Shown piece by piece: positions 1 to 5,112 of a DNA stretch of 5,586 nucleotides. The stretch comes from a virus (taxonomy: Duplodnaviria; Heunggongvirae; Uroviricota; Caudoviricetes). Numbering within the stretch: the first letter of the stretch is position 1; each line of letters begins with the position of its first letter. Under the pieces are notes generated by a model that made no database searches, was not told the DNA's origin, and was given only the letters and a program-made list of their open reading frames with translations. The position numbers and the translations under genes were made by a program. The stretch is from positions 1 to 5,586 of IMG/VR virus record IMGVR_UViG_3300022775_000062; one strand, 5' to 3'.

Positions 1-1454
1 TTATCCTGCATGATTTTAACCAGTCTCTTCCGTTTTACCGTCCGAGGCTTTCAGCGTGGCGGTCAGCGTATCCAGTTTTCCGCTTGCTGCCGCTGCCAGT
101 AAAACGTTCGCTGATTTCAGGGCTTCCTCACCAAAAATGGTTTTAAGGTATTCCCCCTTCTGAGACGTTCCCAGCTTGTGTTTATCAAAGCTGGCCTGAA
201 TCTCTTTCAGAATGGTGAACAACGGACGCATATTTCCCTTTTTTGTCCGAGGTTTTTAACGCCAAGCTCTTTGAGTGCATCCCATGCTTTTTCCAGTCGG
301 TGCCTGTAATCGGGTGACAACGGCACTGCTACCCGTACCCGCCATTGACCCCCTGATGTTATTGTCATGCAGCACACCTGTCATGGCCGCTGCCTGCTCA
401 AGACTTACACCTGCCGTCTTCGCAACCGGCCCGAGATAAGTCAGTGCATCACTGAGTCCCTGAAAAATCAGCCGCCGACCTTATTCATCGTTGCCGACAA
501 CACGTCGCCCACATGACTGACATCATCATTTGACAGTTGAAAGGATGCCTTAGTCCCCAGCAACAGTTGCGCGTTTTCTTCCATCGACCGCTGATTCGCC
601 AGTGCCATATTCAGCGTGACCGGCGTTGCCGCCTGAATAGCCGCAGCATCTCCACCCGCTTTCGCAATGATAATCTGTGCACCGGCCGCATCATCCGCCG
701 AGGCGGCGGTATTGTCGCCGAGCTGGCGCGCCTGTTTGCGTAGTGCGGTCATTTCGGCGGAGTCTTTTGCCACACCTAGCACGGCCTGCAATTCTGAGTT
801 TTTCTGCGCAAACTCATAACCGGGCATCAGCAACTTAACTCCGGCCATCGTTCCCGCAGCAGCAATCCCCACACCGGCAGCGCCCACTGAGGCCATATTT
901 CCGGCCAGTTCCTTTCCGGCCTGATAACGCTGTTTTACTGCGTTAAGTTTTGCCTGTTGCGCACTGACACGCGCCAGCGCGTCACGCTGACGGTTAAGTT
1001 GTGCGGTGGTTTCACTGATACGGTTTTTCAGCCCCTGCTCATCATGTGCAAGATTGCGGGTATTAATTCCCACAGCGGCCAGTTCCCGCTGCTGGCGTTT
1101 AACGGAATCCGTCAGGCGGTTATATTTCGCCTGTAAGTCCTCCGCCGCACGCTTTGCGGATTCCAGCACTTTCGCCTGAGCACGGGTCGGACGTTCGGTG
1201 TTTTTAAACTGTGTGGCAAGGGTTTCGGCCTCCTGCCGTGCCTTTTCAAGTGCATGACCAGTCACGGCGAGCTGTGCACTGGTCTTGCGAAATCCCTCAA
1301 TACGGGATGTCTGACCGTTCAGCTCGCGCAGTGATTTTTGTGTTTCCCGGATATCCCCCGACAGCGATTTGCTCGCTGTGCGGATGGATTTAAACGGGCG
1401 GGATGCCTGGTCAACAGCCCTGAGCAATACCTGTAATTTTACATTGTTACTCAT
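1..1454 (-). pseudogene. T: Phage tail tape measure protein (P2 gpT-like), N-terminal part; reading frame broken several times; gene continues past the window start
   Basis: ORF 468..1454 (328 aa) starts at ATG 1452-1454 and is Ala/Gln/Lys/Arg-rich with coiled-coil character and a Gly/Ala-rich hydrophobic stretch, typical of tape measure proteins. It ends at TGA 468-470, but tape-measure-like sequence continues in a second frame (about 286-471), a third frame (about 240-290) and then the frame of ORF 16..231, which stops at TAA 16-18. Position directly downstream of E/E' matches the P2 FI-FII-E-T order. P2 gpT is roughly 800 aa from memory, so this is only part of the gene. Confidence 0.8.
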
Positions 1455-1874
1455 TCGTGTTTCCGCTTCGCCGGAGCGCCTTTTCGCGCCATGTGATGAG
1501 TTCGGTCAGGCTCATGGGATACAGTTCTGATGGCGGCCAGTGAAATATCACTGCCACATCCGCCATCAGGTCATCGACCGAGAGATTTTTCGGGAACGTT
1601 ACTGCACCGAGTTCGGCGACAAAAAACCGACCACCTTACCGGCCAGCGCCACAAGGTCAGGCAGTTCCAGCGCGGCGACTTCCTGCTCGGTCAGCATCGG
1701 TGCCGTCATGCGCGGCAGCACTTTAATCAGTGCATCGACTTCGGAGTTTGCAACCGCAGCCAGACTGACACCGCGCAGCGTCCCGGCACTGGGTTTCATC
1801 AGCGTGACCTGTTCGATAACCTGCTCACCACGTTTGACCGGATTGTCCAGGGTAATGACATTTTCTTTGTTCAT
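1447..1874 (-). CDS. E+E': Tail assembly chaperone E+E' fusion made by programmed -1 ribosomal frameshift (142 aa predicted)
   Basis: The -1 frame after the slippery heptamer is open from 1620 down to TAA 1447-1449 and reads VAELGAVTFPKNLSVDDLMADVAVIFHWPPSELYPMSLTELITWREKALRRSGNTNE. That gives 85 + 57 = 142 aa, the size I recall for P2 E+E'. The E' stop overlaps the T start (AATGAGTAA). Confidence 0.7.
1599..1874 (-). CDS. E: Tail assembly chaperone gpE (P2 E-like), 91 aa
   Basis: Intact ORF from ATG 1872-1874 to TAA 1599-1601, sitting between tube and tape measure genes as in P2. Size matches P2 E (91 aa). The protein ends ...KVVGFLSPNSVQ with the slippery run near the 3' end. Confidence 0.85.
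   Translation of the reverse strand: MNKENVITLDNPVKRGEQVIEQVTLMKPSAGTLRGVSLAAVANSEVDALIKVLPRMTAPMLTEQEVAALELPDLVALAGKVVGFLSPNSVQ
1620..1626 (-). other. Slippery heptamer T_TTT_TTG (plus-strand CAAAAAA) for the E to E+E' -1 frameshift
   Basis: On the coding strand the codons are GGT TTT TTG (G F L), giving an X_XXY_YYZ-type heptamer T TTT TTG six codons before the E stop. This is the same heptamer I recall as the P2 E/E' frameshift site, and is analogous to lambda G/GT. Confidence 0.65.
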
Positions 1875-1902
1875 GGTTTTCTCACTTCTGAATCGGGGTT
1901 AA

Positions 1903-1923
1903 CCGGTCAGCCAGGCTGACCGG
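1903..1923 (-). repeat. Perfect GC-rich inverted repeat (10-bp arms, CCGGTCAGCC / GGCTGACCGG) between the FII stop and the E start
   Basis: Plus strand 1903-1912 ccggtcagcc, 1913 a, 1914-1923 ggctgaccgg. It lies 8 nt downstream of the FII stop and about 28 nt upstream of the E start on the minus-strand transcript. No U-tract follows it, so it is not a canonical intrinsic terminator. Confidence 0.5.
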
Positions 1924-1930
1924 ATGAAAA

Positions 1931-3651: not shown

Positions 3652-3740
3652 CCGTTTAACTCCGTGGTTAATGGGTGCAACTATTTTCTGTTGGGCAGTA
3701 CATGAGACGCTATTTGATCTGACTGGTCAGTGGATGAAAC
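3652..3740 (-). promoter_or_regulatory. Presumed promoter region for the FI-FII-E-T tail operon
   Basis: This is the non-coding stretch between the upstream intrinsic terminator and the FI start codon, so the operon promoter should be here. I could not find an exact TGT-N12-ACA dyad of the kind recalled for Ogr-activated P2 late promoters, so the call is positional only. Confidence 0.3.
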
Positions 3741-3775
3741 AACAGATAAAGAAAAGGCGGGCAATCAGCCCGCCT
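3741..3775 (-). terminator. Rho-independent terminator downstream of the MFS transporter gene
   Basis: Perfect 8-bp GC-rich stem (plus 3755-3762 aggcgggc, 3768-3775 gcccgcct) with a 5-nt loop aatca. On the minus-strand transcript it is followed directly by UUUCUUUAUCUGUU. It sits about 145 nt past the MFS stop and upstream of the FI promoter region. Confidence 0.6.
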
Positions 3776-3919
3776 GTCATGATTTGCACTCACTCATTTT
3801 CCAACTGACAATTTACATAGCCCAAACGCTATCAAATCTGACAGTCTGCTTTGAGCGAGGAGTGATCATTAGCCTCTCAGCCGGATGCCTTAGAGTACGC
3901 CAGAAATAAAAGGATTGCG

Positions 3920-5112
3920 CTACTGCGCCTTCCTGTTTTGACGGGATGTGGCATATGTCATCGCTACCGCTCCCAGAAGTAACAAACCACTTAAACCAAA
4001 AGCACTTCTCCATCCCAGACTGTCGAATACCAGACCTCCAGCTGTTGAACCAAGTGCAATAAATAACTGAATCACCGCAACCATGAGGCCTCCCCCGTCT
4101 CTGCATCTTCGGGTAACGCGCGTGCTATCCATGTCCACCACCCCGTTGGCGCAGCTGTCGCAAGTAGCCCCCACAGGCTGAGTAGAACGGCAACAGCCCA
4201 GATATGGTGTCCGACCAGCAGTAGCGCACCGGTAATCGCTGCCATAAGCAACGGGATCATGATTAAGGTCTTATAAAATATGGTGTTCAGGAATGTTGAG
4301 ACGATCATTGTGCCGACAAAACCTGCTACGCCTATTGCGAGCAAAATCAGAGAAAGATCAGAAGGTCCCACTCTGGTGACGCTCTCCAGAAAGGGGCGCA
4401 CGTAGGTAAATAAAGCAAACTGTCCCATAAAGAAGAGTCCGCAGGCCAGCAGTCCCGTTGGTACGATGGCAACGCTGAACAGGCGAAGCACAGATCTCTG
4501 TGGCTTTTGTGTTTTATCACTTTCCATCGGAGGCAGACTGACCCATTGCCAGATGAACGCAGCTATCGCAAGGGGGACCAGACATAAAAAGGCCCCACGC
4601 CAACCGATGGTTGTCCCCAGATAGCTACCAAGCGGCGCTGCTACAACGGTGGCCAGCGCGTTGCCGCCGTTAAAAATTGCCAGTGCGCGGGAAACCTGGT
4701 GCTGCGGCACGAGCCGAATGGCGGTTGCAGCCGACATTGACCAGAACCCTCCGATGACAACACCAATCAGAGCCCTCCCCAGCATATAAATCGGATAGTC
4801 AGGTGCTATAGTGATAATTATTCCCGATATGGCCATTAAGACCGTCAGTCCTAGCAAAAGATATTTTCGATCCAGGTCTCCGACAATACGGGAGATAGTC
4901 AGACTGGTAAGCACCGCCAGCGCACCAGAGACAGCAATTCCTTGCCCTGCCAGCCCTTCGGTAACGTGCAAATCATGGGCAATGAGCGTAAGCAGGCTGA
5001 CTGGCATAAACTCAGAAGCGATCAGCACAAACACGCAAAGCGTCATGGCGAATACGCCGCTCCAGTATGCATGCGTTTTTCCGTATGATTGTTTGAGACT
5101 TACAGTGGACAT
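3920..5112 (-). pseudogene. MFS transporter, NepI-like (purine ribonucleoside efflux pump family); frame broken by an apparent 1-nt deletion in the C5 run at 4092-4096
   Basis: ORF 4072..5112 (346 aa) starts at ATG 5110-5112 with an AAGGGGGG Shine-Dalgarno. It encodes a multi-helix hydrophobic protein whose N-terminus and WWTWIARALPEDAE motif resemble E. coli NepI as I recall it. The conserved C-terminus (GGGLMVAVIQLFIALGSTAGGLVFDSLGW...) continues in another frame (ORF 3920..4174) to TAG 3920-3922. One extra G in the coding-strand G5 run would restore a single ~397-aa ORF. Confidence 0.8.

What the first reader, a model, noticed from the sequence alone, without database searches (positions are those of the whole stretch)
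1..5112. Five or more single-base frame disruptions across three unrelated genes in 5.6 kb
The tape measure gene has at least three frame switches plus a stop at 16-18, the tube gene has one, and the MFS gene has one. Several fall in or next to short homopolymer runs (T5 at 288-292, T6 at 239-244, C5 at 4092-4096). The sheath gene (1.2 kb) and E are intact. This density is too high for a working tail module, so it is either homopolymer-type sequencing or assembly error, or real decay of a cryptic prophage and neighbouring genes as seen in pseudogene-rich host-restricted lineages. The choice changes whether this region is read as a functional tail or tailocin module or as a remnant.
Basis: partly seen in the sequence, partly recalled or inferred. 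Interest (0 to 1): 0.6.

Follow-up and report, generated by a model that had tools for sequence, protein, structure and literature searches.

The report
Sequencing indel errors in P2-like tail genes
The broken reading frames are really in the sequence, but they are almost certainly base-calling or assembly mistakes in a short, low-quality contig of an ordinary P2-like E. coli prophage, not a decaying tail module.

Summary
Against two complete E. coli genomes and phage Wphi, the window carries eight single-base indels. Six are insertions in the tape measure gene T (24, 239, 253, 288, 463, 479). One is a deletion in the tube gene FII (2175) and one a deletion in the MFS gene (C6 to C5, 4091). 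Reverting them restores T, a 172-aa FII and a 397-aa MFS protein.

Technical error explains this best:
- The window is an entire 5586-base JGI/IMG contig, and the truncated proteins exist on that contig only.
- All six insertions lie within 480 bases of one contig end.
- Window 212-320 is identical to many complete E. coli genomes except for three inserted bases.
- No T or FII indel appears in 104-123 IMG/VR P2-like loci, in the E. coli genome searches or in a metagenome scan.
- Private indels outnumber private substitutions seven to three.
- Substitutions downstream of the frameshifts remain mostly synonymous.

One caveat: E. coli strain Q5 independently carries the same MFS C6-to-C5 change, so that single site could be real.

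The MFS gene is prophage cargo, not a host neighbour. Nothing here is novel. Reads are needed for formal proof.

The parts
1..1454 (-). Tape measure gene T, first about 482 codons; it runs off the contig end. As written it is broken by six 1-nt insertions. The first stop after the first frameshift is at 468-470, which gives the 328-aa ORF ending ...MNKVGG.
   Evidence: ORF list. 97-98% DNA identity to the T genes of E. coli prophages, Wphi and other P2-like phages. After correction the frame is open from MSNNV... to ...KIMQD.
24..24 (.). Inserted T (CAG[T]CTC), not in a homopolymer; it causes the stop at 16-18.
   Evidence: Absent from all 104 IMG/VR loci covering the site.
239..244 (.). T6 where relatives have T5 (1-nt insertion).
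   Evidence: Many complete E. coli genomes match window 212-320 at 106/109, differing only by the three gaps.
253..257 (.). T5 where relatives have T4 (1-nt insertion).
288..292 (.). T5 where relatives have T4 or TTTC (1-nt insertion).
463..467 (.). A5 where relatives have A4 (1-nt insertion).
479..480 (.). CC where relatives have C (1-nt insertion). This is the first frameshift met by a ribosome translating T.
1447..1627 (-). E' reading frame plus the conserved TTTTTTG -1 programmed frameshift site (1619-1625). This is the only legitimate frame switch in the window and it is intact. E+E' would be 142 aa, as in P2.
   Evidence: The E' frame translates open. Wphi is annotated with the E+E' -1 frameshift. 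The P2 site TTTTTTG and the 91/142-aa products are given in PMC3091744.
1599..1874 (-). Tail assembly chaperone gene E, intact, 91 aa.
   Evidence: The exact protein is seen on 1000 or more contigs and is named TAP_BPP2.
1931..2448 (-). Major tail tube gene FII, broken by a 1-nt deletion at 2175/2176 (AA to A). As written it gives 137-aa and 111-aa ORFs; corrected it is 172 aa.
   Evidence: The intact homologue matches TIGR01611 tail_tube. The 137-aa product is a singleton cluster.
2461..3651 (-). Tail sheath gene FI, intact, 396 aa.
3920..5112 (-). NepI-like MFS transporter gene (prophage cargo), broken by a 1-nt deletion in the C-run at 4092-4096 (C5 instead of C6). As written it is 346 aa; corrected it is 397 aa.
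   Evidence: The best NCBIfam match is NepI at 278 bits, below the 584-bit cut-off. The same C5 state occurs in E. coli strain Q5.
5290..5586 (-). C-terminal part of an alpha/beta hydrolase gene (cargo), running off the other contig end. No indel.

Best explanation
The window is a complete, short (5586-base) JGI/IMG contig of an ordinary P2-like (Peduovirus) E. coli prophage. It carries the tail genes T, E/E', FII and FI, followed by an MFS/hydrolase cargo cassette. I read the eight single-base frame disruptions as technical errors of base calling or consensus building, not mutations.

The first roughly 480 bases of the contig were probably built from one or very few low-quality reads. That would explain six over-called bases there, four of them lengthening A or T runs. 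The two interior deletions (AA to A, C6 to C5) would be under-calls at low coverage. The underlying phage genes are inferred to be intact, and the tail module should be read as functional.

Shown here: the position, type and uniqueness of the indels, and the fact that reverting them restores all frames. Inferred: the low read depth and the error-prone sequencing platform. Neither can be seen without the reads.
For: 1. The truncated products (328, 137 and 346 aa) each occur on exactly one contig among about 15 billion proteins. That contig is from JGI/IMG and is 5586 bases long, the same as the window. The 137-aa FII form is a singleton cluster.

2. Six of the eight indels lie in the first 480 of 5586 bases (binomial P about 1e-5). 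All six are insertions, and both interior indels are deletions.

3. Window 212-320 matches many complete E. coli genomes at 106/109. The only differences are the three inserted bases, with no substitutions. Over 1-520 the best genomes differ by six gaps and three substitutions. Over the FII segment they differ by one gap and one substitution.

4. None of 104-123 IMG/VR P2-like loci shares any of the T or FII indels. The 26-mer carrying the FII deletion has 0 hits in viral contigs and in metagenome contigs, while the intact 27-mer has at least 120 hits in viral contigs. No exact match to the FII 66-mer exists among 1280 E. coli records.

5. In the phage part, only three substitutions are private to the window, against seven private indels. 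Natural bacterial mutation spectra have far more substitutions than indels (established knowledge).

6. After reverting the eight indels, every gene is open and full length. Substitutions downstream of the frameshifts are still mostly synonymous: T 6 synonymous to 1 nonsynonymous, and FII 4 to 0, both versus Wphi.

7. Five of the eight indels are in runs of four or more bases, which make up 6.5% of the window (P about 6e-5). Homopolymer-associated indels that fragment genes are the well-documented error mode of error-prone platforms (PMC12007338).

8. Other IMG-derived contigs of the same tail genes show even denser single-base gaps: L067, L093 and L114 have 7-16 each. This kind of artefact recurs in the collection.
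Against: No reads, coverage or quality values are available, so the error is inferred and not observed.

Homopolymer indels are also the commonest real frameshift mutations. The identical C6-to-C5 change in the MFS gene occurs on a different haplotype in the complete genome of E. coli strain Q5, where it is annotated 'frameshifted'. At least that site can mutate or mis-sequence recurrently.

Three of the eight indels (24, 479, 2175) are not in long homopolymers.

The source contig could not be located in the searchable collections, so the sequencing platform is unknown.
Confidence: 0.87

Rival explanations
1. Mixed case. The six insertions at the contig end are errors, but one or both interior deletions are genuine mutations in the sampled prophage. 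The better candidate is the MFS C6-to-C5; the other is the FII AA-to-A. That would inactivate a cargo transporter and/or the tube protein.
For: E. coli strain Q5 carries the same C6-to-C5 frameshift on another haplotype, in a complete genome. Its neighbouring 30 kb of core genes show no frameshift annotations, so this C-run may be a genuine slippage hot spot. The two interior indels are deletions and lie far from the error-rich end.
Against: The contig demonstrably contains errors, which makes further errors much more likely than rare real events. Only 1 of 104 E. coli genomes has the MFS change. No FII 66-mer with the deletion exists in 1280 records, in IMG/VR or in the metagenome scan. There is no relaxed constraint downstream.
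Confidence: 0.08
2. Real decay. The window is a cryptic, degenerating P2-like prophage in a pseudogene-rich lineage, and all eight indels are true mutations.
For: The density of frameshifts spans three genes. Frameshifted prophage and island genes do exist in E. coli, for example in strain Q5.
Against: - Six independent insertions lie in 480 bases, with none in the next 1700 bases of the same gene, and there are no substitutions across 212-320 relative to many genomes.
- The bias is towards insertions, whereas decaying bacterial DNA is expected to show a deletion bias (established knowledge).
- Private indels outnumber private substitutions seven to three.
- Changes downstream of the frameshifts are dominated by synonymous differences.
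- There are no IS elements, large deletions or nonsense substitutions.
- Apart from the MFS C6-to-C5 change, which strain Q5 also carries, no other assembly shares any indel.
Confidence: 0.03
3. Biological recoding or phase variation. The runs would be slippery sites used for programmed frameshifting, transcriptional slippage or on/off switching of tail genes.
For: P2-like phages do use one programmed -1 frameshift (E/E'), and it is present and intact here.
Against: The relatives have uninterrupted frames at all eight sites, so no recoding is conserved. A stop at 468-470 follows the first T frameshift within four codons. The runs of 5-6 bases are short for contingency loci and are not in promoters or 5' ends. 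The net +6 of the T insertions does not rescue the frame, because stops intervene.
Confidence: 0.01

Closest known systems
Gene-fragmenting indel errors in low-coverage or error-prone assemblies (454, Ion Torrent, early long-read, low-quality read ends), as described for example in the Kastor paper (PMC12007338)
   Same: Single-base indels are enriched in homopolymers and split otherwise conserved genes. They are private to one assembly and vanish on comparison with close references. Indels outnumber substitutions. The errors concentrate where depth or quality is expected to be lowest, at a contig end.
   Different: The platform and read depth of this contig are unknown. Three of the eight indels are not in long homopolymers. 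The end cluster consists only of insertions, whereas nanopore-type errors are mostly deletions.
Tail gene operon FI-FII-E-E'-T of Peduovirus phages (P2, Wphi, phage 10W, P24C9)
   Same: Same gene order and orientation. DNA identity is 97-98% over window 1-3700. The TTTTTTG E/E' programmed frameshift site is conserved. The sheath and E proteins are identical to widespread ones.
   Different: As written, T and FII are interrupted. The cargo upstream of FI is an MFS/hydrolase/LysR cassette instead of Wphi orf44.
Genuine frameshift pseudogenes in E. coli islands, for example the MFS transporter of strain Q5 (NZ_CP127255.1, QQ972_RS00040)
   Same: The identical C6-to-C5 change at the same codon of the same cargo MFS gene.
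   Different: Q5 has one disruption per gene, in a complete chromosome. The window has eight disruptions in 5.6 kb, six of them packed into 480 bases at a contig end, on a different haplotype.

Membership tests
P2-like (Peduovirus) contractile-tail module | Gene order sheath FI, tube FII, chaperones E and E', tape measure T on one strand | tested here: met
   The ORFs are collinear with annotated Wphi and with E. coli prophages. DNA identity to phage records is 97-98% over 1-3700.
P2-like (Peduovirus) contractile-tail module | Programmed -1 frameshift at TTTTTTG producing E (91 aa) and E+E' (142 aa) | tested here: met
   GGT TTT TTG lies at 1619-1627 on the minus strand. The E' frame is open for 57 codons, and 85 + 57 = 142 aa. 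The site is as described in PMC3091744. The sequence is conserved; frameshifting itself was not assayed.
P2-like (Peduovirus) contractile-tail module | Intact, full-length T and FII genes | tested here: not met
   As written, T stops at codon 328 and FII at codon 137. Both become intact only after the indels are reverted. I attribute the failure to sequence error, not to biology.
Sequencing or assembly indel artefact | Indels private to one assembly and absent from close relatives and independent assemblies | tested here: met
   There is one exception: the MFS C5 state also occurs in strain Q5.
Sequencing or assembly indel artefact | Association with homopolymers and with low-depth regions such as contig ends | tested here: met
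   Five of eight indels are in runs of four or more bases (P about 6e-5). Six of eight are within 480 bases of the contig end (P about 1e-5). The window is the whole contig.
Sequencing or assembly indel artefact | Indel-to-substitution ratio far above natural spectra | tested here: met
   Seven private indels versus three private substitutions in the phage part. Three indels and no substitutions across 212-320.
Sequencing or assembly indel artefact | Reads disagree with, or only weakly support, the consensus at the sites | not testable with these tools
   No reads or quality values are available, and the source record was not retrievable.
Decaying cryptic prophage or pseudogene-rich lineage | Disruptions shared by related independent genomes | tested here: not met
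   No sharing in IMG/VR loci, in the E. coli complete-genome searches or in the metagenome scans. Only the MFS site recurs, once, on another haplotype.
Decaying cryptic prophage or pseudogene-rich lineage | Relaxed selection: excess nonsynonymous or nonsense changes, deletions larger than 1 nt, IS insertions | tested here: not met
   Synonymous changes dominate downstream of the frameshifts. No nonsense substitutions remain after correction. There is no length difference other than the eight single bases.

The most novel reading that the evidence does not exclude
The indels are real. A natural E. coli population would then carry a P2-like prophage whose tape measure, tube and cargo transporter genes were all knocked out very recently by a burst of slippage mutations, for example in a mismatch-repair-deficient host. 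The MFS C6 tract would be a recurrent mutational switch, also hit in strain Q5.
Probability: 0.04. Interest if true: 0.25.

Novelty: not a real feature. Interest (0 to 1): 0.07.

Why it matters
The practical point concerns annotation. This contig should be annotated as an intact P2-like tail module with cargo, and its fragmented gene calls (328-, 137- and 346-aa 'proteins') are database noise. Treating such frameshift clusters as biology would inflate pseudogene counts and produce false calls of defective prophages or tailocin remnants. The case gives a usable recipe for telling error from decay without reads: check privacy to one contig, clustering at a contig end, an indel-to-substitution ratio above one, and preserved synonymous bias downstream. 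It opens no biological question.

Tried and rejected
1. Locating the source record failed. Exact-protein look-ups of the 137-aa and 346-aa products found no gene on record. A 43-mer spanning two insertions had 0 hits in genome contigs, viral contigs and metagenome contigs. The sample and sequencing platform therefore stay unknown.

2. Compensated frameshifts were considered, because the six T insertions sum to +6. This was rejected: a stop at 468-470 follows the first shift within four codons, and further stops lie in the shifted frames.

3. Programmed recoding or phase variation at the runs was rejected, because all relatives are in frame at these sites.

4. I checked whether strain Q5's identical MFS frameshift was itself an assembly error. 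A 50-kb view shows frameshift annotations only in the island part and none in 30 kb of core genes. That is inconclusive and leans towards a real mutation.

5. I checked whether substitutions are also elevated at the error-rich end. They are not: 2-9 per 250 bases, as elsewhere, and no private substitution lies in 1-480. The low-quality signature is purely indel.

6. The gap-rich IMG/VR loci L067, L093 and L114 contain no N characters. Their gaps are true single-base deletions in the records.
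Full report
**What the window is**

All genes lie on the minus strand. In order they are:
- the first roughly 482 codons of a tape measure gene T (1-1454, running off the end);
- the chaperone gene E (1599-1874) with its E' extension (1447-1627);
- the tube gene FII (1931-2448);
- the sheath gene FI (2461-3651);
- an MFS transporter gene (3920-5112);
- the C-terminal end of an alpha/beta hydrolase gene (5290-5586).

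Window 1-3700 is 97-98% identical to P2-like (Peduovirus) phage records such as 10W, P24C9 and Wphi. The whole window is 98.2% and 94.6% identical to two complete E. coli chromosomes, Trh52 and CFIAFB20120266. In both chromosomes the MFS gene, the hydrolase gene and a LysR regulator gene sit between the phage genes FI and G, inside the prophage. Wphi has orf44 at that position. The MFS gene is therefore prophage cargo, not a neighbouring host gene.

**Checking the observation**

I aligned the window with those three references. It shows exactly eight length differences, all of one base:
- insertions at 24 (T, not in a run), 239-244 (T6 versus T5), 253-257 (T5 versus T4), 288-292 (T5 versus T4), 463-467 (A5 versus A4) and 479/480 (CC versus C);
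- deletions at 2175/2176 (AA to A) and 4092-4096 (C6 to C5).

Reverting the eight bases gives an open T frame to the contig end, a 172-aa FII and a 397-aa MFS protein, equal in length to the annotated homologues.

The one legitimate frame switch is the P2 E/E' programmed -1 site TTTTTTG. It is conserved at 1619-1625 on the minus strand. The E' frame is open, giving the 142-aa product expected for P2 (PMC3091744).

**Where the sequence comes from**

An exact look-up among about 15 billion proteins finds each truncated product (328, 137 and 346 aa) on a single contig. That contig is from JGI/IMG and is 5586 bases long, the same as the window. The window is therefore a whole short contig.

The 137-aa tube fragment is the only member of its 90% identity cluster. 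The intact sheath and E proteins of the same window occur on 1000 or more contigs. A 340-aa MFS cluster representative has a different C-terminal tail, so it does not share the window's frameshift. The record itself could not be retrieved.

**Error or decay?**

Several independent lines point to error.

1. *Position.* Six of the eight indels lie within 480 bases of one contig end (binomial P about 1e-5). All six are insertions, while the two interior indels are deletions. About 480 bases is the scale of a single read, though that link is inference.

2. *Spectrum.* Window 212-320 matches many complete E. coli genomes at 106 of 109 positions, and the only differences are the three inserted bases. 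Over 1-520 the best genomes differ by six gaps and three substitutions. Over 430-512 they differ by two gaps and one substitution, and over the FII segment by one gap and one substitution. Against about 105 IMG/VR loci, only three substitutions in the phage part are private to the window (1223, 1310, 3718), whereas all seven phage-part indels are. From established knowledge, spontaneous bacterial mutation gives many more substitutions than indels, and decaying DNA shows a deletion bias. This spectrum is the reverse of both.

3. *Privacy.* None of 104-123 IMG/VR P2-like loci shares any of the T or FII indels. The 26-mer carrying the FII deletion has no hit in viral contigs or metagenome contigs, while the intact 27-mer hits at least 120 viral contigs. 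None of 1280 E. coli records matches the FII 66-mer exactly.

4. *Constraint.* In the corrected frames, differences downstream of the frameshifts are still mostly synonymous. Versus Wphi the counts are T 6 to 1 and FII 4 to 0. There are no nonsense substitutions, larger deletions or IS elements.

5. *Homopolymers.* Five of the eight indels fall in runs of four or more bases, which make up 6.5% of the window (P about 6e-5). This is the documented signature of gene-fragmenting consensus errors (PMC12007338).

6. *Precedent in the same collection.* Three other IMG-derived contigs of these tail genes (L067, L093, L114) carry 7-16 single-base deletions each. Ninety-two of 105 loci carry none.

**The caveat**

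Of 104 complete E. coli genomes with this MFS gene, one has the same C6-to-C5 change. This is strain Q5, and the change sits on a different haplotype and is annotated as a frameshifted pseudogene. In Q5, frameshift annotations are confined to the genomic island, and 30 kb of adjacent core genes are clean. That change may therefore be real there.

So the C-run can change recurrently, by mutation or by miscalling, and the MFS indel in the window is the least certain of the eight. The contig demonstrably contains errors, and real frameshifts at any one of these sites are rare (about 1% of genomes). An error remains much the likelier reading for this site too.

**Rivals**

- *Mixed case* (end cluster artefactual, one or both interior deletions real): about 0.08.
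- *Full real decay*: about 0.03. It would require six independent insertions in 480 bases with essentially no accompanying substitutions.
- *Recoding or phase variation*: about 0.01. It is excluded by in-frame relatives and by an immediate stop at 468-470.

**Comparison with known things and verdict**

The locus is a member of the P2-like tail module by gene order, 97-98% DNA identity and the conserved E/E' site. The apparent failure of the 'intact T and FII' criterion is attributed to sequence error. The frame disruptions themselves match the known class of homopolymer or low-coverage consensus errors. Nothing is new biologically.

- Novelty: not a real feature.
- Interest: about 0.07.
- Formal proof needs the reads. 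Deep, concordant read support for the eight states would overturn this verdict.

Noticed in passing
window 3838-5586; L001 6912-10474; L125 4083-7645; L126 4073-7635: The MFS, alpha/beta hydrolase and LysR three-gene cassette is mobile cargo. In two E. coli genomes it sits between the P2-like genes FI and G. Elsewhere it lies next to a tyrosine integrase near yjjG, followed by yfdPQR-type prophage genes (strain STEC299), or in an Ag43/CbtA-type island (strains AH50 and Q5). Phage-backbone homology without the cargo runs to window 3862-3880. Cargo homology in other contexts starts at 3838-3852. About 40 bases are therefore shared at the junction, which may be a recombination joint.
   Followed up: partly
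L127 1361-2553 (E. coli strain Q5, NZ_CP127255.1 8217-9409): Strain Q5 carries the same C6-to-C5 frameshift in the cargo MFS gene on a different haplotype, and it is annotated 'frameshifted'. The C6 tract may be a recurrent slippage or miscall site.
   Followed up: partly
L067, L093, L114 (IMGVR_UViG_2537561693_000014, 2531839586_000013, 2537561685_000016), tail genes E to FI: These IMG isolate-derived viral contigs have 16, 7 and 8 single-base deletions relative to the window across 1200-3650. Some positions are shared between contigs. The deletions are not in homopolymers; at one site checked (window 1789) another locus carries a substitution where L067 has the gap. This looks like a different consensus artefact, perhaps collapsed prophage copies.
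   Followed up: partly
window 1619-1627 (minus strand) and 1447-1620: The P2 E/E' programmed -1 frameshift site TTTTTTG is conserved and the E' frame is intact, overlapping the start of T. It is the only genuine frame switch in the window and should not be counted as a disruption.
   Followed up: yes
window 1223, 1310 and 3718: Three substitutions (T where all 100-111 compared loci have C) are private to the window. By my reading of the codons, the first two each change Ala to Thr in the N-terminal part of T (residues 78 and 49). They could be real variants or substitution errors.
   Followed up: no
window 3751-3777: A GC-rich inverted repeat (GGCGGGC AATCA GCCCGCC) lies between the end of the cargo MFS gene and the start of FI. 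It falls within sequence shared with cargo-less P2-like phages, so it is probably a backbone terminator upstream of the FI late promoter. It was read directly from the sequence and not analysed further.
   Followed up: no
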